From: a virus
Lineage: Duplodnaviria; Caudoviricetes
Direction: 5' to 3' (one strand)
DNA length: 42,358 nt
IMG/VR virus record: IMGVR_UViG_3300025723_000074
Span: 1-42,358 of that record
Each line of letters starts with the position of its first letter. The first letter of the stretch is position 1. The notes beneath the pieces are model-generated. The model searched no databases. It saw only the letters and a program-made list of their open reading frames with translations, and was not told the origin of the DNA. The position numbers were made by a program, and so were the translations under genes. Positions 1,443 through 38,000 of the stretch are shown here, piece by piece.

Positions 1443-2270
1443 ATGGACAACAATCCGCTAAAACAGTACTTCAGAAGACCTGCTGTATATATCAAACTGC
1501 CTTCAGGTGGCGAGGGATATCCACCTGGTTCGCTGATCATGACTGAAAACGGAGAGCTTCCGGTATATCCTACCACTGCTATTGATGAAATCACTGCTAG
1601 GACACCTGACGCATTGTTCAATGGAATGGCTGTAGTTGAGTTGATAAAGAGTTGTATTCCTAATATTAAAGACCCGTGGGAAATTCCTAATGTTGATTTA
1701 GATGCTATTCTAGTAGCTATAAAGACTGCATCATCACCTTCAGGTGAGATGGATATTGATTCCACATGCCCTGCATGTGCTGATACTTCTACATTTAAGG
1801 TAAATCTATCAGCAATGTTAGGTGCTATCGGAAAGCCTGATTATTCTCAACTGATCGAAGTAGGTGAATTAAAGATCAAGTTGAAGTCTATCAGTTTCAA
1901 GGATGTAAACACTGCTTCTATGGAACAATTCGAGTTTCAGCGCGTCGTGTCACAGATAGATAACATTGAAAATATCGATGAACGAAATGCAGTAATGAAG
2001 GAATCACTGCAGAAGATCACTGATCTAACAATGAAGCTACTCAGTCATTCCATAGAGTACATCGAAACTCCTACAATGAGAGTAGAAGAAAAAGAATTCA
2101 TCCTAGATTTCTTGATGCACTGTGACCGCAACCTATATATCTCTATTCGAGATCGTAGTGCTGAACTCAGACAAATGAGTGAAGTGAAGCCCATGAAGAT
2201 GGTGTGTGCATCATGCGAACATCAGTATGAACAAACAATAACATTGAATCCTACTGATTTTTTCGAGTAA
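1443..2270 (+). CDS. gp26: T4 gp26-like baseplate hub / tail assembly protein
   Basis: 275 aa. N-terminal NPLKQYFRRPAVYIKLPS, a DLDAILVAIK helix, two CxxC pairs (CPAC, CASC) and a C-terminal DFF, as in gp26-like proteins of T4-like phages. Adjacent to the tape-measure-like gene. Confidence 0.75.
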   Translation: MDNNPLKQYFRRPAVYIKLPSGGEGYPPGSLIMTENGELPVYPTTAIDEITARTPDALFNGMAVVELIKSCIPNIKDPWEIPNVDLDAILVAIKTASSPSGEMDIDSTCPACADTSTFKVNLSAMLGAIGKPDYSQLIEVGELKIKLKSISFKDVNTASMEQFEFQRVVSQIDNIENIDERNAVMKESLQKITDLTMKLLSHSIEYIETPTMRVEEKEFILDFLMHCDRNLYISIRDRSAELRQMSEVKPMKMVCASCEHQYEQTITLNPTDFFE

Positions 2271-2306
2271 CGCTTCTTAGGTCTGCCCCAGAGCAGATCA
2301 AGAAGC
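2258..2306 (+). promoter_or_regulatory. Putative -1 programmed ribosomal frameshift signal
   Basis: Heptamer T_TTT_TTC (2258-2264) in the correct X_XXY_YYZ phase, then a 7-nt spacer. Hairpin GCTTCTT(2272-2278)/AAGAAGC(2300-2306) plus GGTCTGC(2280-2286)/GCAGATC(2293-2299), with one bulged A and a 6-nt loop. Confidence 0.75.
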
Positions 2307-2494
2307 TCTTAGATTCATATGAAGAGGAATCTATCTCCATAAAAAGGACGGCACTGCACATGGCATGGAACATGCGCGGCGGAGCCACCTATGAGGATAT
2401 ATTGAATATGTCCTATCAAGAAAGACTAGAGATCAACAATCTCATAGAAGAACACATGGAAGTGACTAAAAAGTCTCAACTTCCGTATTTCTAA
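2264..2494 (+). CDS. gp51-like hub assembly ORF, probably the -1 frameshift extension of the gp26-like gene
   Basis: The -1 frame is open from the slippery site to TAA 2492-2494: RVTLLRSAPEQIKKLLDSYEEESISIKRTALHMAWNMRGGATYEDILNMSYQERLEINNLIEEHMEVTKKSQLPYF. First ATG is only at 2360. Not in the ORF track. Confidence 0.7.
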   Translation, partial: RVTLLRSAPEQIKKLLDSYEEESISIKRTALHMAWNMRGGATYEDILNMSYQERLEINNLIEEHMEVTKKSQLPYF

Positions 2495-2518
2495 TCTCAT
2501 TCATCTCTTACTCTTGAG

Positions 2519-2568
2519 AGTTGTCCTTCGGACAACTATAATGTACCTCACTTCGTTCGGTACATTAT
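2519..2568. repeat. Two abutting perfect inverted repeats (terminator and/or ssDNA hairpin signal)
   Basis: AGTTGTCC-TTC-GGACAACT (2519-2537) and ATAATGTACC-TCACTTCGTTC-GGTACATTAT (2538-2568), followed by a T-rich tract on the + strand. Confidence 0.75.
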
Positions 2569-2629
2569 TCTCTTTACTCTTTTTTAGGCTGCTCTTATAT
2601 GTCTCTTATTGATTATTGATCTGCTGCTC

Positions 2630-2985
2630 GGGAGCCATGGTAGTGCTGCAACAGCACTACCTAGGATATTGGACTGCTAGCCCTGTATGCCTTTCTGTCG
2701 TCTGTTCCCCGTCATACTAGCTATTTCATGCTGTAATAACGCCACCGGTTGCTCTGTAAGGTTTAATGGGACTGTAGTGAATCTTACTATCTATTGATAG
2801 CTTTCAGCAACGCATGTCCTGCACCATCAAGACAAAATAGATGCAGGCTCATTCAGGGTTCGCTTAACCTAACGAGAGCCCTGTCGGTATTCCATGGACA
2901 CGAATGTCCAAGCTTACTCCAGATCCGTTGATGGTGTTTCACATCTTCTCAAGGAGAGTCGAGGTACCTCGACCAAACAAATTGT
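2630..2985 (-). ncRNA. Candidate large structured non-coding RNA, family not recognised
   Basis: No ORF of 60 aa or more, at least eight helices, a UUCG tetraloop and G-U-compatible pairs on the minus strand, and two long-range pairings. Lies just downstream of the resolvase on the same strand. Ends are approximate. Confidence 0.6.
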
Positions 2986-3044
2986 AGGGTTCTGTTGGAA
3001 GCCGTGATCTTCGTGTCAGTTAGTGTAATATGTAGGTCGTATAT

Positions 3045-3614
3045 TTAGACTGACTGGGTGTCAATAGTGAGTATATTGCCGGACTTGATGTCTGTTGTGT
3101 TTGATGCTGATGAAGCGTGTGATCTAAGAAGGTCTTTGTTGTGCCTGAAGAAGTTATCAAATTCTATGATTAGCCAATCACCCAATTTAGGTGAACTATA
3201 GTACGTAAAGTTGTCTGTTACCCATGTATGCTTAGTCTGCACTACGACATATTTGCCTTTGCGATTAAACTTCATGAATAGAATATTACAATCTTCTGGT
3301 TCTGCGACTACCATGAGTTGCCCTAACCATGTATCAAGTTGTTTGCAATCACCAGTCAATACCAGATGAAAGGGGAAGTCCTTGTATGACTTGCACTCTG
3401 CATTAAATCTGGTAAATGACTGTCCAGGAATGATATCTCCTTTGAAAGTTCTAATCTGTCCCTCATCTAGAAATTGCTTGCGAGCTTGGTTCTTGCCACC
3501 GATATAGGCGCCAGATCCGGGTACCCGTAGAAACTTCTCATCATATGTTTTAGATAAAAAGGCAGCAACGTCTCTCTCGAACGATGAACCTTTTGCTTTG
3601 CTAGGAGATGTCAT
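3045..3614 (-). CDS. Holliday junction resolvase, Hjc-like PD-(D/E)xK nuclease
   Basis: SKAKGSSFERDVA, RVPGSGA, GDII and ECK motifs. Located downstream of gp46/gp47. Confidence 0.8.
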   Translation of the reverse strand: MTSPSKAKGSSFERDVAAFLSKTYDEKFLRVPGSGAYIGGKNQARKQFLDEGQIRTFKGDIIPGQSFTRFNAECKSYKDFPFHLVLTGDCKQLDTWLGQLMVVAEPEDCNILFMKFNRKGKYVVVQTKHTWVTDNFTYYSSPKLGDWLIIEFDNFFRHNKDLLRSHASSASNTTDIKSGNILTIDTQSV

Positions 3615-20047: not shown

Positions 20048-23000
20048 ATGGCCGGAAATACTAATACGACTATCATCAGGACGCTATCGTTCCTACCGGA
20101 GATATTCCAGACTCCATCTAACTCACAGTTCTTGCAAGCTTCTCTAGACCAGCTGGTAAATCCTCCTATCGCTAGCAAAATACAAGGTTATATCGGTAGC
20201 AAGTTTGGATATGGTGTCAATGCCAATGACTATTATGTAACAGAACCTACCAAGACCCGCCGTGATTATCAACTAGATCCGGGCGTAATCTTTACTGCTC
20301 CCGCGGATTCCGCCACCGTTCCAGCAGGCACTGCTGTAGATTTTATTTCTTATCCAGGCATCATCGATGCATTGACTATGCAAGGCGGTGTCACGGATGA
20401 TAATAGTGCCCTATTTACAGGTCAGTTTTATTCTTGGGACTCATTTACTGATTTAGATAAACTGATCAACTATAATGAATATTATTGGTTGCCGGATGGT
20501 CCTCCTGCTGTACAAATCGCACCTGCAGCAGTATATACACAGGAATCCTATATCGTCACTCCGCTGACCAATGGTTATCAGATCGCTATTGAGAACCAAG
20601 CAGGTAGTGCTGTTAATCCAGTACTCACATTGATCCGTGGTGGAACATATACCTTCACGGTAGATCAAGCATCTCAGTTCTGGATTCAGACATTGCCAGG
20701 AACTTCAGGCGTGTATCCCACACAACAGAATAGGACTACACGCGATGTTTATGGTGTCATCAACAACGGTGCTGAAGTCGGCGTCGTCACTTTCAATGTA
20801 CCATTAGCCAACGCACAGGATGGATATAATATAACCGGAAATCTAACTGTTGACCTAGTTAGCACGACACCGTTCGCTAATATAAACGGACAGCCGCTAT
20901 CTTCATTTAGTGGAAATATAGATGGAGTCACTTCATTAAATGGATTGACTGTTATGTTCTATGGTACAGGACTTTCCTCTGAAAATCCAACCGGATATGT
21001 TGAGTCAGGATTCGATCAGGTATATGCGAACCAACCAGCACAAGCCGCTAATACTATGGTCGAAAGCGTAGTATATAAGATTGCTACTATCGGTAGTGTT
21101 AACTGGACTAGTTTAGGTCTTTCTGGCTCCCCTGTTATCGGTGGCACATTTACTTATAATGGCGCTGCTGTTACAGGTACTGGCACAGTCACGCTAGTAG
21201 AGATTCCTTATGATACAAATGATCCAGTCATTCAAGCCGTAACACCTCTAACATTTACTGTAGGTAGTACAACTGACACTAGCTTATCATTGATAAACGG
21301 CGGAGACACCAACCAATTTACAGCAAATGCGCTTGTGACTTTCTCTGGTACCACCATCGGCGGCATCGAAGCCGGGCAGTTTTATTATATCGCTGACATA
21401 CTAAGTTCTACAGAGTTTACTGTGTCTAATGTAGCAGGAGGCAGTGCAATATCATTGACACCTGATTCAGGATCAATGACGATCAGTTTCGATAATGTTC
21501 CTCGTCCTCTACAATTTGCAGTCGCCAGCCAAATAAATGACAACACACATTTCATTCTGTCATCCGGCACTACCAATAATATGGCAGTAAATGATACTAT
21601 TACTTTCTCCTCATATAATAATGGTCCTACCTTCGGCGGTGATGCGATCAATTTTGGTCAAGTATATTTTGTCAGCGATATCGTGGATGCAGTAACATTT
21701 GCAATATCAGAGACTCCTGGTGGCGCGATTATCGTTCTTACTGATGGTTCCGGCGCTATGACAGTGAATATAAATCAAGGTCAGCTTGACAATGGATTCA
21801 CGACAACTGTTCGCGACAACTTCTATACTATACAATATGAAGGTGATCCTAAAAATCCCATTATCAGATTATTTCCAGCAGGTGCTATTCCGTTAGATCA
21901 GAAGATCACTCCTAGACTAGGTCACGCTTATAATAATATTCCTTTCTATAGAGATGCAGAAGGCGTTCTACAAGAAGTTCCTGCGATTACTGCTCCGCTG
22001 AATACTCTATATTATCAAGACAGTTCAGTTGCAGATCGTGCCGGAATCATTCAACTAATCGATGCAAATACAGATAATACTATAGATGTACCTACACAAA
22101 TTCTAGGACAGGTAAACTACACATCTCCAAATGGTGTAGCATTTACGAATGGATTAAAAGTTCAGTTTAATGGAAATGTCACGCCGGTAGCATATCTCTC
22201 AGGTGAATATTATGTTCAAGGTGTAGGTACGTCGATAACATTAGTACCAGTAAATGAGTTAGTTGTTCCTGAAAAGTTTACGACAGGCAATTATATTCCA
22301 TGGGATTCGACAGGGTGGGATATCGGTAACTGGGAAGAACAACTGTTTATTCCTGCACAACCAGATTATGTAACTATCGCTAGGGATTCATTGAGCAGGA
22401 ATCCGTGGTCAAGAAGCAATCGTTGGTTCCATATCGATGTCATCAATGCGACTGCGATTTATAATAACGATCCTGCCATCGCTATAACATACGCGACTGC
22501 TAAGAACAAAGCATCTAGACCTATCATCGAATTTTATCCAAATCTAAAGTTGTTCAACTCTGGTATTATCGGGGTCAATCCAGTAGATTTCATCGACACT
22601 CGCACTACTAATGCTATGATGACAGTAGCCGGCGCATTGAACTATTATCCAGATGTGCAGGTATATAGTACTGCGACTGCGACCATTGCCTCTGCAAGTG
22701 CAGCAACTTCTACTACGATTACTGTTTCAGCATCTGCGATTACTGGTAGCCTCGAAAATCTTATGTATATTGCGGATTCATTGAACCAGTTGCCAGCAAA
22801 TACGACGATCACTTCGATCACCGGAACAGATACTTTAACTCTCGCTGTTTCTTGGCCTGAAGCAACAACTATCGCAGGTGGAAGCAATGCATCTATCGTA
22901 GCTAGTGCTGCTAATGTATCTGCCTATGCATTATTCCCTGGTGCCCGCATTATTTTTGCTGCAGATGCGAATCCAAATGTAAGAAACAAGATTTATGTAG

Positions 23001-26000
23001 CTGAGTTCTCTACTATTCAACCATTCGGCGAACCGGTCATCACGCTTACGGTAGCAGAAGATGGCAACTGCATTCCGGAAAATCAGACTGTTGTAACTCG
23101 TGGTTATAACTATCAAGGATTTAGTTTTTGGTATGACGGTATTCACTGGATTCAAGCACAGAATAAGACACAAGTAATCCAGCCACCTCTCTTCGACATA
23201 TTCAACTCTAGCGGCATCAGCTTGAGTGACAAGACTGTATATAATAGCTCATCATTCGTTGGTTCTAAACTGTTCTCTTATGCCATCGGTAGCGGCACAA
23301 AGGATCCTGTATTAGGATTCCCTATCGAATATAGTTCTATCGCGAACTCAGGAGATATCGTATTCGACGTATCACTGAACTCTGATACTTTTACATATGT
23401 TACAGGATCTACACCTGTAACAGAAAATGTAAATATCGGTTATGTCTATAACTATACCTCAGGAACTGACCATGTACGGCAGTTGGGTTGGCAGACTGCT
23501 ATCGCGCCCAGCCAGCAATACCAGATATTCAGCTTCAACTACGATATCACTCAACCTACAACAACTTATATATGTGATGTTCCTGCTCGCGCTGAACCAA
23601 CTGGCATTACTAAATCAGGTTCATTTGTCGCCGGCGCAACATATACCATCACTTTTGTAGGTACGACTGATTTCACATCGTTCGGTGCTGTAGCAAATAT
23701 CGTAGGAGAGACATTTGTCGCGAATAATAACACGACAAGTATCGCTACAATGAACAGTGGTTTCGAATATCAGATCGTGACTTTAGGCAGCACTGATTGG
23801 AACTCTATCGGATACAATGGAACCCCGGTCGCCGGCGGCAAGTTCATCTATAATGGTGCTGCATTGTCTGGTAACGGCACTGTATCAGGAGCAAATGCCG
23901 GTTCAGGCATTGCGAACAGCTTGGGCTGGCCTACTGTTCAGGTTTATGATAATAACATATATCTAAATCCAATAGGTGCGATCACTATCTTTGCTTATAA
24001 GATGGTTTCTGGATTTACTTATAAAATCGCATCATTAGGAATCACTAACTGGACCAGTATCGGTTATGTAGGTACACCTGTTATCGGTGGAACTTTCACA
24101 TATAATGGTAACGCTGTTATCGGTGATGGTACTGTATCTAGCCCGCCATATGTTGTGAATATCGGAACTGATACAACTACTGTATCTCTCGCATATCAGC
24201 CTGCAACAAACACCGTTATTCAAGTATTATTATTGAGTGATCAAGTAAGCCAGACTGCTTATTATAGTATTCCGATCAATCTCATCAATAATCCTTTTAA
24301 TACTGATCCAACGAGCCTTAACTACGGAGATATCAGTAATCAATATCGTGATATTTTCATAAACGCGCCAAATACTATCGGAAATATTTATGGTGCTAAT
24401 AACTATCGCGACTGCGGAAATCTAGTACCTTATGGCACTAAACTGATACAGAACTCTGCTTCTCTGGCATTGCCTGGTGCATTCTTGCGTTCAGCAAGCA
24501 CTAATCTATTCGATGCATTGCAGTTTAATAGCAGGGAATATGTGAACTATAAGCAGTTGATCGTCGCGACTGTGCAGAACACCGATTACGCTCAACGTTT
24601 CACTCCTTCTCAGTTATTGAATGATGCTCTATTGCAGATTACAGCTTCACTTAGCGAAGCTAACTCTTTCTTCTGGTCAGATATGTTGCCTTCTGCGACA
24701 CCATATATTTCCAACACTTATACATTTAATAATGGATTGACCCAATCAATCTATCCTCTGAGCAAGGTGTATAACTTCAGCACCGCAAACTATAACGGAG
24801 TGCTTGTTTATCTATATCGTGTTGTAGATGGTGTCGTGATAGAGAAGCAGTTGACGAGCGGTGTCGATTATGTCGTCAGCACGACTGCTCCTAATCTAAC
24901 GATCACTACTGCTATTCAAGCGGGTGACCAGGTAATCATCAATGAGTTCAACCAGACATATGGTTCTTATGTTCCAAATACTCCAACTAAGTTGGGGCTA
25001 TATCCATCATTCCAACCAGGTGTTGTTCTTGATAAAGATTATCAGACACCGACATATTTTATCAGAGGGCACGATGGTTCCTTCAACAGGCTTTATGGTG
25101 ATTATGATCCAGTAAATGATATATTATTTGACTTCCGCGACCAAGCATTGCTAGAGTTTGAGTTGAGGATCTATAACAATCTAAAGTTGAGCACTACTGT
25201 TCCGGTATCTAAGTATGAAGTCCTTCCTGGATTCTTCCGCACGACTAACTATACTTGGAGTGATTTTATTGATATCTACAGCCCAACGTTCTTGAACTGG
25301 GTAGGACAGAACCGCATCGATTATAAGACACAGTATTTCAATAAGAACGATCCGTTCACTTACAACTATACAAATGCGTCTAATAAACTAGATGGTTCGC
25401 TGATCCAACAGGGTTATTGGAGAGGTATCTATGAGTATTTCTATGATACGACGACTCCAAATGAGACACCTTGGGAGATGTTGGGCTTCACTGATATGCC
25501 CACCTGGTGGACATCTAGATATGGTCCGGCTCCTTATACCAGCGACAACTTTATTCTTTGGAGCGATCTAGAAGCAGGTTATATATGGAACGACGGAAAT
25601 CCATATGTCAATCCGCAGTTGACCCGCCCAGGACTATTGACTGTAATTCCAGTAGATTCCAACGGTGATCTATTGCCTCCGACCTTATCTGTATTGGGTA
25701 ACTATAATGCGACTGCTATACAGAAGGATTGGATTGTAGGCGACGACGGCTCTGCCGAACTCAGCTATCGCCGCAGTTCAACTTATCCTTTCGATCTGAT
25801 GCGTATATTTGCATTGACTAAACCAGCGGAGTTCTTTAATCTAGGTGTCGATCTAGACAACTACAAATATAACAAAGAGTTCAATCAATATCTGGTAAAT
25901 GATCGTAGCCATCTTGTAATATCCGATATAGAAATATATGGTAATGGTACTGCAAAGACCAGCTATATAAACTGGATCGTGGATTATCAGAAGCAACAGG

Positions 26001-29000
26001 GCATCGATGCTACAAATACTATTACTGGATTATTAAACAATCTTGACGTGAGATTGGTATATCGTCTTGCTGGATATAGCGCACAAGAACAGTTGCAGTT
26101 CTTTGTGGAGAAGCCTTCTCCTACAAATATCAACTCTTCTCTATTGATTCCTAATGAGAGTTATAACATTCTACTGTATAATAACCAGCCATTCGATAAG
26201 ATTGTATTCAGCGGTGTTATCGTTCAACAGAATGCAGGTTATTGGACTATATTTGGTAACTCACAGGATATCGCATATTTCGAGATATTGGATCCGAAAT
26301 ATAATGGAAAATACAACAATGTCACTATACTGAACCAAACTGTAAAACTAGCGACCGAATATTATGATACTACGACGCTAATTCCATATGGCACTAAGTT
26401 CTATAATACACAAGACTTATCACAGTTTCTGATGTCATATGGTGCGAAGCTACAGTCTCAAGGAATGATCTTCTCTGATCAATCCGGCGGAATGCCGATC
26501 AACTGGGAGAATATGGTATATGAGTTCTTGTATTGGACTCAGACCGGTTGGACAGATGGCAGCATCATCACACTAAATCCTGCTGCTTCTATCATAGAGA
26601 TCGATCCAGGCACGGCGCTAGTACAACCTCTGACTATCAAAGATCAGAACTTCGTTCTAAATCAGAACTTATATCCTATCAATATGAAGGATCTAGCCAT
26701 CAATCGTGATGGCACCTTATTCACTGCGACTGCGTTGAATACAGGTGACGCCCTGGCATATGGTCAGTTCAATATCAGCAACTTCGAGAATGGCATCGTC
26801 TTCGATAATGTGACTATCTTTAATGATGTCATCTATTCTCTCGTTACCGGAGTCCGTCAGAACCGTATCAATATGCGTGGTACCAAGAGCGCCCAATGGA
26901 ACGGCACGGTCAACGCTTGGGGCTTCATCTATAATCAAACTGATATACAACAGTGGGACGGTACCGCGACCTATACCAAGGGCGAGATCGTGCTCTATAA
27001 GAATAGATATTATGCATCACAGCAGATCGTTCAACCCTCTACAAAGTTCGATCAGACTGCTTGGAAACTTATAAACTATAATCCGTTACAACCTAATCTA
27101 TTAGCCAACCCATCTACTAGAGCATATGAGAGTGTACTCTATTATGATATCTATCAGGCTAACCTGCAACAAGATGCTGATCTACTAGCATTCTCGCTGA
27201 TCGGATATCGTCCTAGAGATTACCTATCCCTGATCGATCTCACTGATGTAGCACAGGTTCAAGTCTATCAGAATATGATCATCAATAAGGGAACGCTGAA
27301 TGCGATCAAAGCATTCAATGGCGCAAATCTTCCGCAAGGTGACATTCAATATACTGTATATGAGAACTGGGCAATCAAGACCGGTGATTACGGCGGAGTA
27401 CTCAATCAGAACTTTGTTGACTTCAGAGTAAATCGTGCTGATATGACCGGCGATCCTTCTATCGTGAGCCTGTCTGACGGAACTTCATCTCCTCCTGCAG
27501 GAACGATGCAAGTCATTCCTACATATAGCCTATATAACTATGGATCAGCACCCACTTCATCAAATATATTGACAACTCTACCGAATAGCGAACCCGCTTC
27601 GACACTATATCCCAGCGCAGGTTATGTAAACTTCAATGATGTAGAGATGTCTGCTTACTTCTATTCTGGTCTTCCGCTAGCAGTGAATGGCAGCGGCACT
27701 GTTGTTCCTATTCAGAACTTCTATGTGGGTCAATATCTATGGTTGGCCAACTTCAAGGAGAGATGGGAAGTATACGGTTGGAACTGCATAGGTCAAGTAA
27801 TCTCTATACAGAACAATCTAAATCAAACTGCTACTGTGACCTTTAATCAACCTCATGGTCTCAAGGCATTGGATCCCCTAGCCATCATAAACTTCGCTAC
27901 TGAAGTAGATGGTTATTATCTAGTTGTTCAGGTTGTGAACCTATATCAAGTAACGATCAATCTTGCTCTGACTTCTAATGCTACTACGGCGCTGCAAGGA
28001 CTAGGTTTAGGTCTAGCATTCGAAACACATCGTGTCGCAAAACCTGCTGAACTCTCGAAGCAAGACCTGATCACAAATGAGTTCATCAACAACTTATACT
28101 GGGTGGATGAGAACACTGATGGCAACTGGGCAGTATACAAGAAGACCATCAACTACAAATATCAAGATCAACTAGAAGTACCTCAATCGGTTGTGCTGGG
28201 CACAGCAGTGGCTTATACCGATAATGTTGGTTATCTTGTCAGCGATCCTGGTTTAGGAAAAGTTTATAGATACACCTTTAATGCACTGAGCAACAAATAT
28301 GATCTAACTGAGACACTCGTGCAAGGCGCGGGATTTGGAACAAAGATTGTCTATACTGGTAATCTATTCTTTATCACTCAGCCAGGCAATTCTACCAGCA
28401 ATGTCTATGTTTATACACTGAATAACACCGTGGCTTCTACCGAGTTGTTATTGGTTCAGACACTGGTTGTTCCTGCATCTGCAAATAGTATCGCAGTATC
28501 AGGAGATGCAAACTGGCTGTACATTTCCGACACTAACAACAACCGTGTGTACAAATACTATAGAGAATATACTCCGTTGAGCAGCGGATACTTTAACGAT
28601 GGCGAGACATATGAGATCACCAGCTTAGGTACCACAGACTTCGTGTCAATCGGCGCACCTGCTAATCAGATCGGAATAGTATTCCAGACCAATCTCTCTA
28701 ATCAGATTTCTGTGACAAATATGATTGCAGGCTGCGTATATGAGATCACTGCTTGGGGCCTTACTACTAACTGGAATGAGATCGGCTATTCAGGCGGTCC
28801 TGCAACAGGCGTGACATTTACTTATAATGGCGCGGCTGCTACAGGGGACGGCATGGTATCAGGTGCAGGATTAGGAACCGGCACTGCTATACAGATTTCA
28901 TACGCACTGTCATCAACAATCGATGGTGCTGCTACAGGCGCAGTATCAGGTGACAAGTTCGGCTATTCATTGTCTACTAACTATGAAGGTGATATCTTGT

Positions 29001-32000
29001 TAGTCGGCGCTCCATTCAAGAACTATAGCCAGACTATAGAGAACTGGGGAACTGCTTATCTGTATCAACGCGCTGTTCAGAACATACAAGCACAGCACAA
29101 GAATACATCTGGTTCAGCACAGGCATTCACCCTAGCCTGGACTACCTCTACGCTCAATCAAGCAGTGAGCGCAGTAACCAGCAACTATATCAGCGTAAGT
29201 GATGTCACTGGATTCAAGACAAATGATGCCATCATCTTTGCTAATGGTTCGACAGAAGCTTCTGGTATCGATCTATTGACAGTATATTATGTGGGCGATA
29301 TCGACGCAGGCACTAACTCATTTACTATAAAGACATCGCGCTCTACGACTACTTCAGTGACATTAGCCGATAGCACTGGATTGACCTGCACCGCATATGC
29401 GCAATCTCCGAGACAGGTATATCGCAACGGTGTTCGCGTGAACGATAACAACTATGCCACTATCGGAACGCAGTTCTATTATCTGGGTGATTTGTTCGTG
29501 GGAGATATTCTCAGAGTAAACGGCGGACCAACAACGCTTACTCAGACATTTAACTCTAACTATACAAATCGTACTGGCGTACAGTTCTCGTATGCATCAG
29601 ATATGGATACGTTCGGCACAAATATCCTCATCGGTTCTCCATATGAGATCAATCCAGACGGTGAAGAAGGTGCAGTATATAGTTATATCAACGGCGGCGC
29701 AAGATACGGTACAGTTATCGGCACTTCCGCATGTCAGGTCACTGGTAACAAGACTGTACTGATCAATGGCTTTGCAGTCAATCTCACTGCAGGCGATGCT
29801 GCTAGCACGGCTGCAACAATCAATGCGAGCAACATCATCAATGTTCAGGCAGCAGCAACTTATGATAATAAACTAATAATACAGCTTATCGATACTGCAA
29901 TAGCACCTGCTAAGAGCAAGTTAGTTGTCACTGCTCTGGATTCTGCTGTGCTACCAGAACTAGGTATCCAACCATATACTCAGACACAAACTATCGTCTG
30001 TCCTCATGCATACGGTCCTACTGAGTTTGGTTCTACTATAAAGATCAATGGAAACAGCGTTGTCATCTCTGCTCCAGTCGGAACACGGTATGAGAGTACA
30101 GTATTTGACTTTAATAGTGCAGATAATCTCTACAACGATACTGTGTTCGACAATAATGCGACACAGTTCATCGATGAATATCCTAATGCTGGCGCAGTAT
30201 ATATGTTCGATTATCTCGTCAACTACAATGAGAACATCAGCGATCCTGGTGCATACATCTATGCACAAGCAACAAATGATATCGTATTGGATTATGGTTA
30301 TGAACCCCGATATGGAACTGCGATAGACTTTAATGACAATGTTGTAGTCGTAGGAACTCCCGGATTTATGCCAGTCGCAGTCGGTGGTCAGGTCGTGACT
30401 TATGTCAACTCTTCTGGCAACTCAGACTGGTCAGTATATCGTAGTTCGGCTCCGATCGTGAATATCAATACGATCACTAATACCCAGCTCTATAGTGCTA
30501 CTACCAACGAGACTTTGGTAAACTTCGATTATATCGATCCGCTACAAGGCAAGATATTAGGTGCTGCTAGAGAGAACCTAGACTACGTGACTGGAGTAGA
30601 CCCAGCCAAATACAACGTAGACCTAAATGCACAATCAGGAATGCTATGGGGCGCTGGCGAGGTAGGTAGATTATGGTTCGATACTTCGAATGTCAGATTT
30701 GTGAACTACCATCAGTCAGATGTCGTGTATAACAGCAAATATTGGGGCGCGGTCTTCCCTGGATCAGATGTCGCAGTTTATAGCTGGATCGCGAGCTTCA
30801 TTCCTCCTGTGAACTATCAGGGACCTGGTGTACCATATGATGTGAATACATATGTTGTAAACAATGTACTGGATGCGACTGGTGTCATCACTCCTGTATA
30901 TTATTTCTGGGTGCGTGATACAAATATCATCTTTAGCCAGACTAACAAGACACTATCTGATAGCGTAGTAGCATCATATATCGCTAATCCAAGAACTTCT
31001 GGAATCTCTTATATGGTGCCGTTGTTGCCCAGCACATTCGCTATGTATAACTCTCTGAGCTACTTTAATGCTACAGACACTGTATTCCATATCGGATTCA
31101 ATACCGGAACAACGACAGATGTATATCACCAAGAGTTCGCGCTCATCGAAGAAGGGAATAGCGAATCCTTCCTTCCAGGTCTTCCTGCGATCTCGCTATC
31201 TAACGCAAATAACATCTACGGAACTCCGTTCTCGTTATATGCTAGAATGTTGGATTCTCTAGCAGGATGCGACCCTACTTCAGCGGTCGTACCTGATCCG
31301 TTCCTTCCGCTAGACGTACAATCAGGTGTGTTCTCTCGTCCAAAGCAGAGCTTCTTCTATGATCGCCTATTGGCACTAGAGAACTATCTAACCTTCGCTA
31401 ATACTGTATTAGCACAATATCCGATACTAGAAACCAGAGAAGAGTTGTCATTCTTGTATGCGGTTGGCCCGATTAATCCAAGTAACGGCGAACCTTTCTA
31501 TGACACGACGCAATATTGGAGCCCAGTAAACTGGTATGCTGCTGGATATAACTCTAGCATAAAGCCTGCGATCCAAGTTGCGATCTATGCTGATTTAGCA
31601 GCATTAAATCCAGCAGTCGGAACACTCGTAAAGGTTCTATACAACGGTAAGGGCAACTATGAGATTTACTCTTATGCAGGTTCAGGCAACTGGACTCGCG
31701 TAGCATTGCAGAACGGCACTATACAGTTCAGCCAAACGCTATGGGACTACTCTGCAGGCAAGACAGGTTGGGATGGTAACTTCTTCGATACTGCTCCTTG
31801 GGATCAGTATCCTAGCGAAGAGACACGCAATATAATCCGCGCACTGAATGAGCAGATTTACATCGGCGATCTTATCTCTTATCGTAATGCCAGCCTGATC
31901 CTAATGTTCTCGTATATTCAGAGCGAAGCAGCGGAATCACAGAACTTCTTGCCTTGGTTAAACAAGACATCTCTTGTGAATGTATCGCACACTATCCGCG

Positions 32001-35000
32001 AGTTGCTGCCTTATGAGACATATCGCACAGACAATCAAGTATTCTTGGCTGACTATATCAATGAGACTAAGCCATATCACGTTGTGATATCAGACTTCTT
32101 GTTCGAGTATACAAAGACTGATTTATTTGAAGGTGACATCACCGACTTCGATGTGCCAGCACAATACAACAGTCAATATCAGAAGTTCGTATCTCCGCAA
32201 CTGGTCTATACACAATATGGCAATCCGCCTTATGAATATACACTCAACGATCCCATCTGGCAGACACAAGAATACAATCAGTGGTATAATAACTATGGTA
32301 CTTCTATCACAGGTATTCCTGGATTCAATATCACTAAGTTGGGTTCATATATCAGCAACACGACCTCTATCATATTGGTAGATAATGCTTCAGGATTCCC
32401 TATCAATGGAATCATAACAATAGATTCCGAACAGATCGGATATACTACCGTAGATCGTGCGACCAATACGCTACGTGGTATCACACGCGGCGTCAATGGA
32501 ACAGTGATCGCAGATCATCTTCCTGGTACAAACATTTACATCGATCTTCCGGGCGTGCTAGTATTATACGGTGCTAGGGGATATATCAATACACCAAAGG
32601 TCACTGCATACATCGACACCAGCATCTACCCAGCACCACGCGAAGTAGCAGTCCTCGAAGCAGTTATGAATATCGATTCGGTCTTGCAGATCAATGTCGT
32701 AAATCCAGGACAAGGATATGTTGTCACCCCTGAGATCAGAGTAGAACCAGCAGAGACAGTATCTTTTAGCAACACTGATATCGACACTATAACTCACGTC
32801 ATCGGGGTATCCGCTCCCAACTTCACCACCGGAGACTTCGTGCAGTATTTCGATGGTACAGGTCCGGGTACAGGTAAGTTGTTCAGTGGTCAATGGTATT
32901 GCATCAATGTCCTAGAGACTGCTCCATTGACAGTTATCGCTCTCTATAACAACTATCGTGATGCGATCAGCGACACTAACAGGATTCCAATCTTTGACGC
33001 AGGTGTCTCAACGGGAATGACGCTCAATCTAGGTGCTCGCGCATTTGGTATCACGACATCTTCTCCCGTAAGAGAGAACAATCTCACCATCAAGTATGAT
33101 CGCACAACTTATACATCACAAGTCCAAGACTGGAAGGCTGCTGCATTCTACGGTTCATACTTTGCGGGTAACTATAATAACTCTGATGCAGTAGCAAGTT
33201 CTTCATATACGCTACAGAATGCAAATCCCAATATCGGCGACATACTAGCAGCCGCACAAGGCATTCCATTCGAAATAGCAGCAGTGAGCAATACTACACA
33301 ACTCAACTGGTCATCCTTCATCCGTCTGGTAAACTTCACCGATGATATAGAAAAATCTATAATACTCAGCTTACAAGACGGAAACAATACTATTCTCACC
33401 TTACCAAATGCTTCCGGCGGTACGACAGGTTTCTATGTTGGTATGCCAGTAAGATTTACTGGTAATGTAGATACAGCGAATACCCATATCATCGCGAACA
33501 AAGAATATTATGTCAAAGAAGTATTGCGAGAGACTGCATTCACTATCTCTGAGACTCCGGGCGGTCCAGTGTTCGATGTGGGTCTGTCTTCGATTCCTGA
33601 AAACAGTATGCAATGCGAAGTGGCTGAAGTCGTAGATACTGCGATTGTCACCCTGAACTATCCAGGCATACTACAGGCTACAGCGACCGCATCAGGCACA
33701 AATGCGATCACTATTCCATTGACTGATATCGGCACAGGTGGAACTATCGGATTCTATCCCGATCTTCCGATCTTCTTCACTGGAACTATGATCGGCGGAA
33801 TCGTAGAGAACCAGACTTACTATGTGACCTCTGTGATCGATGATCAGAACTTTACCATGTCACTCACTGAGAATGCGCTGAATACTTCAGTGACTGCGAC
33901 TGCTTCTGGTACAAATGTGATCACTGTGGGTTCTACTGCAGGATTCGCTCTAAACAATCCTGTAATCATCAATCAGATGACTGTATCAGGTTCTATGGTA
34001 ACTGACTTTGGAAACATCGTGTCAGGAAAAACTTATTATGTAAGAGAAGTAATAAACTCTACTGAGTTGACAATCTCTGAGACGATAAATGGTCCTGTAG
34101 TTGAACTGAATAATCAAACCGGCACAGCGACTATGACTAGCCAGGTCAATACAGTAAAGCTTAGCAATGGCACTGGTTCTATGACTACAAATGTCCTACT
34201 TCCAGTAAGTCCTGGACAGGTTAATGGTCAGCAGTTCACCTTCTATACTTCATCATCTCAATATCCTAACATCAGCAACGGTGTTCCTAGAAACCTAATC
34301 ACTAGAAATGTAGATGCTACAATCGCTGGATTGAACCGCATCGCGATCACTGCTGACACCGGCGGCATCGCACAGTTCTATGAAAATCTACCTGTCAGGT
34401 TCAATACTCCGATCGGCAATCTAGAGACAGATACGACTTATTATGTCCTCGCTACAGGAACGGTATCGGTTAATGTTAGCTCTTCATCTTCCAACTTCAA
34501 CCTGCTAACTTGTGACACAACTGCTTCTCTCTATGCAGGTATGCCAATCGTATTCTCAGGTGTTGGTCTAGGTGGCATTGTTATCAGTTACACTTATTTC
34601 GTATATTCTATCTCGGATGCTACTCACTTCAGCGTCTCTGCTGATGGTGTCACGGAATTCGTACTAGAGAATGATAGCGGAACGATGCTTGGTACTGGTT
34701 CTCCTTATATCACAGTATCTACAACTCCGGGCGGATCAACGTTCGAGTTGAGCAGCAGCATAAGCAAGTCAACTCTGACCCAATATCTACTTGGGGAACC
34801 AGTATTCAGTCTCTCTAACAAGATAGGTGGTTACACTGTAGTCATAGAGAATCCAGGTTCAGGATTCGCTGTAAACAATACGATCAGCATTCCTGGAACA
34901 GAAGCAGGTGGAACATCACCAAAGAATGATATCACACTCACTGTGAATACGATCGGTCCTAATGGTGAGATCACTGATGTCATTGTTGCTGGAACGCCAA

Positions 35001-38000
35001 ATGATCTCGTGCTCAAATATTATCTAAAAGTCTATTCACCCGATCAGCTAGAGGTATATGCTGATCCTCTCTTGCAGGTTCCAGTAAGCTTGGCTGACTT
35101 CCCGTACAAGGGATTCACAACTACGACTGCTACACAGGTTGCTGCTTCGGGTACAGGCGGTTGGACTTCTCATTCTGTGGTACAACTCAACAGTGTCGCT
35201 GGGTTCTCTGTCAATGATGCGATAGTCTTTACTGGCAATGTGTTCGGAAATATCGCGCTAGGATACACTTATTATATAACCAATATCAGTATCGCGCACA
35301 ACGAGATCGTCATCTCAACGCTTCCATCAGGTGCTTCATTCGTGACCGGATCTGCTACGGGTAATATGCTGATGGCTAAAGCAGGTAGTTATGCTGTATT
35401 ACCTGAACCATTCTACTTCAAGCAATCAATCGTCAGATATGCGAACAGAGTATGGAAATGTAATATTTCTAACAATGACAGCACCTTCATCTTTGGTAAG
35501 TGGGAGTTGTTGGATTCAGGTGATACTGCACTGAATGCTATGGATAGGACTATAGGTTACTATCAACCTACTGTGAATATGCCTGGTGTAGACTTGACAC
35601 AGTTGTTCGAGGGGGTCACTTATCCAAATAACATTTACTATGGTAATCAGTTCCAGCCCTCGCAACAGTATCCGTTGGACAACTTATTGCAGGATCAACC
35701 ATTCGCTCCGGTCATCTCTATCAATAGTTTGTTGTTCGATGCTGATACAAATGTATATTATGCTGTTGGAGATCTTTCAACCTATTCAGCAATACTAAAG
35801 AGCATCGATCTAGTTACTTGGAATGTTATGCAGATCGTAGATACAAATGCTGGATTGACCGGCATAGTGTATGCTAACGGAAGATTTGTAATATCTGCTA
35901 TAGATACTGCAACCCCTGTATTCACTAGCACAGATGGTAGTGTCTGGACTACAAATGGATACTTCCCTATATCTGGTACTTCATTGCAGGCGATCACGCA
36001 CGATGATAGCTGGATAGCAGTCGGAAATGCTATCGTGAGAAGCACGGACGGTGTTACTTGGACATCGGTTCATACTTATGCTCCTCAGAATGATGTTACA
36101 TTATACGGCGTAACACACGCTAATATTCCTAACTTTACAGGTTATGTAGCAGTAGGTACGGGCCTTCAAAATACCAGCTCGAATAATCCCGGCCCTAGCA
36201 ACATTATATCACGCAGCTACAACGGCGTAAACTGGATAGACATCCCTTCGATCACTCCGAATGCTCTATATGCAGTAGCATCCGATGATGCGGGTCAGAT
36301 CATCGCGGTGGGTGAGAATGGAGTCATCTATACAACTTCGAACGGTAGTAACTGGTTCGGCATAAATCAAGTCACTTGCGTCAGTGTCAATCCTGCAACA
36401 AACATATTAAATGTCACCAATACATCAGGATTTGTCGTCAACTCTACGGTAGTGTTCAGTGGTTCGTTCTCCTCTATCCTATCAGATACGGTATATTATA
36501 TTGTAAACATATTGTCACCTACTCAGGTTCAGATTTCGGATACCGAGAGCGGCACCCCGATCACGCTCACATACTCGACTATTCCTGCACAGACCATGAT
36601 GTCTCTGTATCAAGAAAATGGTTCTAATGATCTATACAGTATCATATATGCGAATGATTTATGGGTAGCAACAGGAGCTGCAGGAACTATTCTGACATCT
36701 TCGGATGGTATCGTTTGGACATCTCAGTATATTAGCACACCTGAATACTTGAATAGTGTTACATATGTGACTAATCCCTCACCTTTCATCACTTCCGGAT
36801 TCATTGTTACTGGAACAAACAATACAATAGGAACATCACCTGATGGCATTACGTGGACTGTAGTAGGTAAGTTCGAAGTTCCCCTTCCTGATTACACTGT
36901 TCGCGGCGATCCTTTCTTGGCAGGATATGGTCCTGAAGAACTCGTGCCGGGCGTCGTCAGAGACAACTTGGCTATGATCGTGAATACTCGTCCAGGAACT
37001 ACTTGGAATGCCGCAGAATATGCACATACTGGTTATAATGTTGTATCAGTTGAGTTTCCGAGTGTTCTCAGCGGACAATCTACATATTCATTCGATAGTA
37101 TCGTGCCGGTACCGGCACAAGTCTTTGTTCAACTACTAGATCCAACGACAGGTCTAGGAACTACACTATCACAGAACCAATATACGGTAAACTGGGTTAA
37201 TAAGACTATCGTACTCGCGACACCTACAACACAAGCAGTGCGCGTCGATGTATATGAAGTCGGTAATGGAAACCAACTAATAAAGTCTAACACTGATTAT
37301 GATCCTATCAGGACAAACAATGAGACAGGCTTCAATGAGATATACCTCGACTGCAGATATAGCGCGACATTGACGAGTGGTAGCGGGGTGATACAGCCTA
37401 ATGGTTCAGGGGTCACGGTGTGGTCTCCTCCGTTCATACATCATAACGGTGCTCCGCTCGTATTAGGTGCTACCAACTCTGTGTCACGCACTAGTTCATC
37501 AGATAATACTTTACTCACTATTTCTACTGCAGGAATGAATGTGGGGGACCCCATCATATTCAGCACTACGATCTCTAATATAGCACCAGAGATACTTCCA
37601 GTAACAACTTATTATGTTGCTACGGTTGCTTCAAATACTAAGTTCACGATCTCGTTGACTCAAGGTGGTCCAGTACTTCCGATCAGTGATGGTCAGGGCA
37701 TCGCATATTTCGTTACAAATGATTATGCATTCACTATTCAACCAAACGGCGTCTCTACTGTGATGGTATTCTCATCTCCGTATACCCGATTGGATGATTA
37801 TCTAGTATATTCTATCTTCGGTGAGACTACACCAATACAATATGGATATACAATTCCAGAAACACAGGAGTTTGTGAGCACCGGCGATACAGTATTCGAA
37901 CCTCTCACTAATAATCTCAACGCAACAGATGCGTATAATGCAATCGTAGAAATCAACGGTGTAAGGCAGAACTATTCATCCTACACTATCGATGTCGCTG

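What the first reader, a model, noticed from the sequence alone, without database searches (positions are those of the whole stretch)
2630..2985. Candidate novel ~350-nt highly structured, pseudoknotted ncRNA downstream of the resolvase
Seen (plus-strand coordinates; the RNA reads on the minus strand): palindrome GTCGAGGTACCTCGAC 2958-2973; UGGACA-UUCG-UGUCCA 2895-2910; CAGGG/CCCUG 2879-2883/2854-2858; and CCUGCA/UGCAGG 2842-2847/2818-2823. The loop of that last stem can pair both upstream (CACCAUCAA 2928-2936 with UUGAUGGUG 2822-2830) and downstream (UUUUGUC 2831-2837 with GACAGAA 2693-2699). A multiloop is closed by GUUGCU/AGCAAC 2806-2811/2748-2753 and contains CUAUC/GAUAG and GUAAG/CUUAC. 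There is a bulged hairpin at 2710-2741 and a terminal 10-bp GGUAGUGCUG/CAGCACUACC stem at 2639-2661. This is the only long non-coding stretch in a gene-dense 42 kb, preceded by an unstructured A/C-rich linker. I see no tRNA, tmRNA, RNase P, or group I/II intron hallmarks. Inference: an undescribed phage RNA class co-transcribed with the nuclease/recombination block, possibly a ribozyme, a nuclease-associated RNA, a replication primer or a protein decoy.
Basis: partly seen in the sequence, partly recalled or inferred. Interest (0 to 1): 0.8.

Follow-up and report, generated by a model that had tools for sequence, protein, structure and literature searches.

The report
Jumbo-phage knotted RNA, likely replication primer
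The gene-free gap holds a conserved, doubly knotted RNA-type fold of about 370 letters, shared by many giant lake-type phages and absent from the Rfam catalogue, whose layout (a word copied twice, then plasmid-style DNA hairpins) suggests that it likely grips its own DNA to start copying the phage genome, which nobody has tested.

Summary
Real. The minus-strand element (about 2990-2621) is conserved in 70 non-redundant phage copies with strong covariation (98.6% of cells paired, 36 of 61 pairs compensatory) and has no Rfam hit. Most stems are right. Sister types in the same slot include Rfam Polynucleobacter-1 (function unknown). In small bacterial integrase islands, related RNAs occupy a slot that otherwise holds an HUH/Rep-like gene. 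Best reading (0.6): a ColE1-like, self-clamping primer RNA at a replication origin. Transcription, R-loop and priming are all inferred; GC skew was uninformative, and in this type the resolvase is nearly always upstream. The scan found this family, the twin repeat and the origin idea before on other genomes; I re-tested them here.

The parts
2621..2990 (-). Structured RNA-type element (type A), about 370 nt; ends approximate
   Evidence: 70 non-redundant homologues, covariation; strand by G-U:A-C 109:9
2958..2973 (-). 5' hairpin P1, variable in sequence
   Evidence: sequence; alignments
2917..2956 (-). P2 domain: invariant CUCC/GGAG stem with inner hairpin; shared with type B elements
   Evidence: A model hits 6 of 10 type B, best E 1e-8
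2743..2889 (-). Multiloop closed by 2889-2885/2747-2743 holding stems 2883-2879/2858-2854, 2852-2841/2824-2814 and 2811-2807/2752-2748
2698..2835 (-). Pseudoknot 1: UUGUCU 2835-2830 pairs with AGACGA 2703-2698
   Evidence: MI z 20.5, 16.4, 12.4; 403 of 414 cells; 5 of 6 pairs compensatory
2706..2771 (-). Pseudoknot 2: UCCC 2771-2768 pairs with GGGA 2709-2706
   Evidence: MI z 22.4
2711..2740 (-). Bulged hairpin P7
   Evidence: 8 of 10 pairs compensatory
2674..2684 (-). Twin repeat, copy 1 (here GC-U-AGCAG; family NC-xx-GGCAA)
   Evidence: identity covariation
2639..2661 (-). Terminal hairpin, nearly invariant on both arms
2621..2629 (-). Twin repeat, copy 2 (here GC-AGCAG; family NC-GGCAA): predicted landing site of copy 1 on the template strand
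   Evidence: the pairing is inferred
2566..2620 (-). A-rich tract, candidate unwinding element
   Evidence: mean 46% A, 24% G+C over 40 nt in 68 homologues
2542..2564 (-). Hairpin with tandem G-A and GAA loop (GAACG-A-AGTGA at 2558-2548), like the hairpin downstream of ColE1 RNA II
   Evidence: single copy in the window, 0.11 expected
2519..2537 (-). Second hairpin with C(GAA)G triloop
3052..3062 (-). Conserved GAC-N5-GTC motif inside the resolvase 3' end; role unknown
   Evidence: 53 of 63 homologues
3045..3614 (-). PDDEXK / RusA-like resolvase, upstream neighbour
   Evidence: PF24608 E 1e-23, phrog_244

Best explanation
This is a conserved, doubly pseudoknotted RNA-type element followed by a twin repeat, an A-rich tract and DNA-type hairpins, and it likely works as a ColE1-like primer RNA at a phage replication origin. 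Shown: the fold, its strand, the co-mutating repeat and the hairpin tail. Inferred steps: (1) it is transcribed, probably by read-through from the resolvase/SbcCD operon; (2) the folded RNA would present copy 1 (2684-2674), which would pair with the template DNA strand at copy 2 (2629-2621) just behind the polymerase and seed a persistent R-loop into the A-rich tract; (3) an RNase H-type cut or the transcript end would give the 3'-OH primer; (4) the displaced strand would fold into the GNA/G-A hairpins, which would load a helicase/primosome (host PriA or a phage loader).
For: Twin repeat: strongest non-Watson-Crick signal of an unbiased MI scan is identity between 2682 and 2627 (z 12.1); own-copy match 503 against 462.9 +- 4.6 in permutations, 0 of 10000 (ignores kinship); on a tree of 70 rows, for the 61 with a clear register, 10 and 11 changes separately and 11 jointly; the window and L302 changed GGCAA to AGCAG in both copies. 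Mismatches are one-directional: copy1 G / copy2 A 104, A/G 1, as rG-dT wobble predicts; no third complementary site in the RNA (at most 2 of 30 variant rows per column bin). Sister types repeat it with other words: first six letters identical in 22 of 23 unambiguous rows, the exception G/A (27 loci examined). Tail: GNA triloops in 51 of 159 tail hairpins against 1 of 230 in the body; GAGCG-n-AGCGA or GAACG-n-AGTGA on the RNA strand in 55 of 68, opposite strand 0, nested ColE1-like form in 6; ColE1 has that nested hairpin at 1324-1351 on the RNA II strand and two G6 runs at 928-933 and 1175-1180. Islands: of 19 DUF6641 loci in 10 of 201 genomes, 4 hold a related RNA with twin repeat (2 by pattern, 2 by eye), 3 a short ORF plus another hairpin-tailed non-coding stretch, and 5 instead an ORF with HxH and YxxK motifs (H, Y, K invariant in 72 sequences), PF23343 E 3e-4, best fold match SIRV1 ORF119 Z 8.1, rmsd 3.0, 109 aligned, with parvovirus Rep domains at Z 7.4. 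Phage Phosso has RNase HI directly behind the syntenic 1-kb gap.
Against: No transcript, R-loop, primer or origin activity is shown. GC/AT skew of the 333-kb relative G001 follows the coding strand and cannot place an origin. RNase HI found in 0 of 5 related contigs (host enzyme possible). The kinship-aware pair test is underpowered (6 pairs, about 5 same way, 0 opposite, p 0.06), 9 divergent rows including the window were left out of it, and 7 of 30 variant rows matched a consensus partner better than their own. The G/A bias rests mostly on two conserved positions. The short G-A hairpin word also occurs by chance elsewhere in these genomes at control rates. 39 of 40 pattern-found type-A copies keep the resolvase upstream. 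The island HUH call is below Pfam's cut-off in 1 of 5 proteins and absent in 4, Foldseek gives no E below 0.001 and ranks IS200/IS608 transposases first, and generic folds tie; the island RNAs are RF01718-type, not type A, and my island profile did not hit types A-D. No conserved sigma-70 promoter on either strand. PA5oct and Phosso gaps show no profile match and no clear twin repeat.
Confidence: 0.6

Rival explanations
1. A trans-acting ornate RNA (like GOLLD/ROOL) or RNP scaffold; the repeat is a tertiary or protein contact and the hairpin tail is only a transcription boundary or stabiliser.
For: Size, two pseudoknots and many invariant unpaired bases exceed what a primer needs; swappable 5' modules; the tail lies between convergent operons; two earlier notes preferred a boundary (e1-5342574, e1-5764947).
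Against: Same-direction identity covariation with a G/A bias is not explained by pairing within one strand; tail loops are GNA/GNNA, DNA-type, on one strand only; the terminator scan finds no terminator in the tail; always cis-fixed layout, also in islands.
Confidence: 0.17
2. An RNA that guides or recruits the adjacent resolvase (or HNH/SbcCD) to its own locus, for cutting, recombination-dependent replication or packaging initiation.
For: Resolvase upstream in 62 of 63 type-A copies with flank (39 of 40 found without using it); self-matching word resembles a short guide; HUH nickases take the same slot in islands.
Against: Island copies have no resolvase nearby; L290 has another upstream gene; the resolvase is inverted in PA5oct and Phosso and abuts other genes in SCTP-2; a 7-9 letter guide is short.
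Confidence: 0.1
3. The whole element folds as single-stranded DNA (a single-strand origin or packaging signal) and is never used as RNA.
For: No expression evidence; G-T pairs are allowed in DNA; the tail is DNA-type.
Against: Body hairpins carry GNRA tetraloops (28 of 230) and almost no GNA triloops; two long-range pseudoknots over 370 nt are typical of RNA (established knowledge).
Confidence: 0.08
4. A ribozyme or mobile-intron remnant.
For: Conserved unpaired core such as ACUACAG and UUGA.
Against: No Rfam intron or ribozyme hit; fixed intergenic slot, no interrupted gene, no insertion-site variation seen.
Confidence: 0.05

Closest known systems
ColE1/pMB1 origin: RNA II pre-primer with downstream n'-pas/ssiA (NC_001371; PMC5043065, PMC3167613, passages read)
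   Same: Long folded transcript, a word repeated further down its own gene (two G6 runs), then on the same strand a nested GAACG..GAGCG-n-AGCGA..AGTGA hairpin that recurs in the phage tails. The papers describe persistent hybrid, RNase H processing and helicase loading on the non-template strand.
   Different: No sequence or Rfam likeness of the RNA body; repeat is mixed-sequence, 49-65 nt apart instead of about 250, and co-varies; no antisense RNA I seen; sits in a 200-330 kb phage with its own DnaB-like helicase and primase. That the G runs seed the hybrid and that this hairpin is n'-pas is recalled, not read.
Polynucleobacter-1 RNA motif, Rfam RF01718 (PMC2864571: table row and supplement hits seen; no function given there)
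   Same: Same slot behind the resolvase in 5 of 20 loci scanned; chain of profile matches A to B (5' domain) and B to C (3' half, 8 of 8, E to 1e-25); same repeat-hairpin-repeat-tail layout.
   Different: The window has no RF01718 hit; the Rfam model covers only the first 141 nt of type C; type A and type C share no direct profile match.
T4 oriF/oriG (ori uvsY, ori 34) R-loop origins (PMC3016281, passages read)
   Same: T4-like phage, transcript predicted to form an R-loop in an A+T-rich unwinding element.
   Different: T4 origins are about 100 bp, promoter plus unwinding element, sequence-independent, with no structured RNA, repeat or hairpin tail.
GOLLD, ROOL, OLE, raiA ornate RNAs (recalled)
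   Same: Large, multi-knotted, often phage-borne, function unclear.
   Different: No Rfam hit to them; smaller; cis-fixed self-matching repeat and DNA-type tail.

Membership tests
Polynucleobacter-1 (RF01718) | Match to the covariance model above 37 bits | tested here: not met
   No hit in window at gathering or E up to 10; met by sister type C
Polynucleobacter-1-linked superfamily (types A-D) | Same slot, shared modules, repeat-hairpin-repeat plus G-A hairpin tail | tested here: met
   type D is linked by layout and one weak hit only
ColE1-type origin | Long structured RNA upstream of the start site | tested here: met
   structure by covariation; transcription itself not shown
ColE1-type origin | Sequence or model homology to RNA II / RNA I | tested here: not met
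   no Rfam hit; no plasmid match beyond one 21-nt chance hit
ColE1-type origin | Word in the RNA able to pair with the downstream template strand | tested here: met
   (sequence level only)
ColE1-type origin | Primosome-assembly-type hairpin downstream on the displaced strand | tested here: met
   55 of 68 on the RNA strand, 0 opposite; identity of the ColE1 hairpin as n'-pas is recalled; PriA binding untested
ColE1-type origin | Antisense regulator RNA I | tested here: inconclusive
   antisense sigma-70 site 11/12 at 2514-2542 only in this genome, at the other end, not above shuffles in 68 homologues
ColE1-type origin | Persistent R-loop, RNase H cleavage, DNA extension from the RNA | not testable with these tools
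   needs experiments
T4 oriF/oriG | A+T-rich unwinding element downstream | tested here: met
   24% G+C over 40 nt after copy 2
T4 oriF/oriG | Middle-mode promoter directly upstream | tested here: inconclusive
   no sigma-70 enrichment; conserved GAC-N5-GTC motif of unknown role; MotA box not tested
Group I/II intron, RNase P, tmRNA, known ribozymes, GOLLD/ROOL/HEARO | Rfam model match or ARAGORN call | tested here: not met
Nuclease-associated guide RNA | Obligate linkage to one nuclease gene | tested here: inconclusive
   62 of 63 in type A but absent in island copies of the sister type
HUH Rep (island slot protein) | HUH motif, catalytic YxxK, Rep fold | tested here: inconclusive
   motifs present; PF23343 below cut-off; Z 8.1 to SIRV1 ORF119 with generic folds within about 1; Rep versus transposase not resolved

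The most novel reading that the evidence does not exclude
A superfamily of large, modular, multi-pseudoknotted origin RNAs that target their own DNA through a re-programmable 7-9 letter word, start replication of T4-like jumbo phages without an initiator protein, and have been captured by small chromosomal islands as a drop-in replacement for a Rep gene, switched on by the helper phage's late promoter.
Probability: 0.4. Interest if true: 0.9.

Novelty: new variant of a known kind. Interest (0 to 1): 0.74.

Why it matters
Replication origins of most jumbo phages are unmapped, and the ColE1 primer is the textbook case of an RNA-only initiator. If the reading holds, it gives a function to a motif catalogued without one in 2010, extends RNA-primed initiation to large phages and satellite-like islands, and offers a clean genetic test (single against double repeat mutants). 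If it fails, a 370-nt doubly knotted RNA with a self-matching, co-mutating word is still unexplained. Three paper searches found no description of the full-length element in the open library; paywalled papers were not searched.

Tried and rejected
Rfam at gathering and E up to 10, and ARAGORN: nothing. blastn against cultured phages: no match; plasmids: chance hits only. Pattern scan of GTDB genomes: 0 of 120 returned loci hold type A; the scan covered 27 of 64 parts. Sequencing runs: no RNA holder listed, which is no evidence either way; no reads were laid. PA5oct paper (PMC7318152, passages): its four ncRNAs lie elsewhere by the coordinates given; its two held supplements do not name the small ORFs in the gap. 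GC skew of G001: confounded with the coding strand; the main strand switch lies about 5 kb from the RNA. gp59 search: nothing rang, even in controls, so uninformative. Antisense sigma-70 promoter: this genome only. Pairing of copy 2 with the UUGCCG arm inside the RNA: seen by eye, does not covary. PDB sequence search and PHROGs for the island protein: nothing. Script slips: one search's repeat pattern missed most rows; pair lists had the P2 stem off register (clean totals in 86); the automatic register failed for 9 divergent rows. No covariance model was built and no R-scape is available. No paper passage was found for the ColE1 G-run/C-run pairing or for GAA-loop single-strand signals.

Full report
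Setting. The window is part of a T4-like jumbo phage: tape-measure-like gene, baseplate hub/chaperone (1443-2270 +), PDDEXK/RusA-like resolvase (3045-3614 -), HNH, SbcC, SbcD, late sigma factor, then structural genes. The finding lies in the 550-nt gap between two convergent operons. Rfam and ARAGORN find nothing. The lone sequence folds only modestly better than shuffles (z -1.88).

Homologues. The resolvase fetched 80 loci; 34 carry a strong match to the gap. Two pattern scans of IMG/VR added 104 of 120 and 42 of 120 loci with a profile hit; 0 of 120 GTDB loci had one. After dropping partial copies, 17 without anchors and near-duplicates, 70 rows remained (L001 is identical to the window there). 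An unbiased mutual-information scan recovered the stems and two pseudoknots. On the 25-row alignment the 61-pair model has 98.6% of cells paired and 36 compensatory pairs, above all 500 shuffles and all slid registers; these counts include shared ancestry. G-U outnumbers A-C 109 to 9, so the minus strand is the folded one.

Sister types. Other resolvase loci hold different elements in the same slot. Five of 20 scanned hit Rfam Polynucleobacter-1, a motif listed in 2010 without a function (PMC2864571; I saw the table row and supplement hits). Profiles link type A to B through the 5' domain and B to C (the RF01718 type) through the 3' half; D is linked mainly by layout; A and C do not match directly. 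So the window is not a member of RF01718 but belongs to a modular superfamily of which RF01718 is a fragment.

The twin repeat. My reading before consulting earlier notes was already an origin primer; the repeat was a lead from those notes, and it also came up as the top non-Watson-Crick signal of my scan. A short word flanks the terminal hairpin twice, 49-65 nt apart, and changes in both places together. At the most variable position 59 of 61 clearly registered rows are identical (G 41, T 9, C 8, A 1), the two others G/A; the tree needs 10 and 11 changes for the copies alone and 11 jointly; the independent-pairs test has only 6 pairs (p 0.06). Nine divergent rows, the window among them, were left out there; by eye the window has AGCAG in both copies. 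Mismatches are almost all copy-1 G against copy-2 A, which a hybrid of RNA copy 1 with the template strand of copy 2 would tolerate, although two conserved positions supply most of them. No third complementary site exists in the RNA. Types B-D and island copies show the same with other words. Pairing within one strand cannot give same-direction identity, so RNA pairing with its own template is the simplest reading (inference).

The tail. After copy 2 come an A-rich tract and hairpins with GNA triloops and tandem G-A pairs, unlike the GNRA loops of the body; that such loops are DNA-type is established knowledge, recalled. The fetched ColE1 record has two G6 runs 247 nt apart in RNA II and, further on the same strand, a nested GAACG / GAGCG-T-AGCGA / AGTGA hairpin. 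One or other of these words lies on the RNA strand in 55 of 68 phage tails, never opposite, nested in 6; the window has the collapsed form at 2558-2548. The phiX174 F-G gap has similar GAA-loop words. The word alone is short and occurs elsewhere at control rates, but it is next to the element in 5 of 5 large contigs. Papers read in passages state that RNA II forms a persistent hybrid, RNase H leaves the primer and the non-template strand loads the helicase (PMC5043065), that n'-pas recruits PriA (PMC3167613, PMC5778457), and that T4 origins are a promoter plus an unwinding element forming an R-loop (PMC3016281).

Islands. RF01718 rang in 3 of 151 genomes of one betaproteobacterial order. There the full element, with repeat and tail, lies between DUF6641 and a tyrosine recombinase, with defence cargo nearby and no resolvase. 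Among 19 DUF6641 loci, 14 have TAAATA (late-promoter-like, consensus recalled) at the head of the divergent slot; the slot holds such an RNA in 4, a short ORF plus another hairpin-tailed stretch in 3, an HUH-like ORF in 5, other genes in 5, and 2 are truncated. The ORF family keeps H, Y and K invariant, folds confidently (pLDDT 86) and resembles SIRV1 ORF119 and parvovirus Rep domains, with generic folds close behind and IS200-type transposases first in Foldseek. A slot that alternates between this RNA and a Rep-like nickase favours a replication module, but these are sister-type RNAs and the protein's role is not proven.

Against. Nothing here shows transcription or priming. Skew is uninformative. 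RNase HI was not found in 5 related contigs, though Phosso has it right behind the syntenic gap. Type A is tightly linked to the resolvase. No promoter was identified.

Verdict. A real, uncatalogued member of a modular phage RNA superfamily; it most likely works like the ColE1 primer (0.6) without being homologous to it. The scan has reported this family many times on other genomes; those notes are leads, not support, and more were seen than the twelve listed. Supplements of bioRxiv preprints were closed and paywalled papers unsearched, so a prior description cannot be excluded.

Noticed in passing
window 2255-2494 (+): The hub/chaperone gene ends in a TTTTTTC slippery site and the -1 frame stays open for 77 codons to 2494; site in 60 of 61 relatives, open frame in 61 of 61. 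Likely a tail-assembly-chaperone programmed frameshift, next to the tape-measure-like gene.
   Followed up: yes
window 2514-2542 (+): Near-perfect sigma-70 site (11 of 12) pointing into the element on the antisense strand, with a hairpin as its spacer; not conserved in 68 homologues.
   Followed up: yes
window 3052-3062 (-): GAC-N5-GTC motif conserved at nucleotide level in the variable resolvase tail (53 of 63), duplicated in L290 where another gene is upstream; possible promoter or binding site.
   Followed up: partly
L465, L466, L497-L500 (G058, G011, G100, G032): Family of small DUF6641 / tyrosine-recombinase islands with a TAAATA-headed slot and defence cargo (Zorya-like, type III and MmeI-type restriction); DUF6641 has no mention in the paper library. 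Candidate jumbo-phage satellites.
   Followed up: partly
L479, L480, L496: A further non-coding element type behind a short ORF in the island slot, with a word seen twice by eye and the same G-A hairpin tail.
   Followed up: no
L081:2480-3990 and L083:2987-4000: PA5oct and Phosso have 1-1.5 kb gaps in the syntenic slot, headed by TAAATA on the minus strand, with the resolvase inverted; four tiny annotated ORFs in PA5oct may be miscalls.
   Followed up: partly
L043, L056, L057, L060, L061, L064: Types C/D carry G-A hairpins on both strands behind the RNA (6 of 25 loci with a tail), which would suit two-way loading; type A only on one.
   Followed up: no
window 20048-39772 (+): A 6574-codon ORF, not examined.
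   Followed up: no
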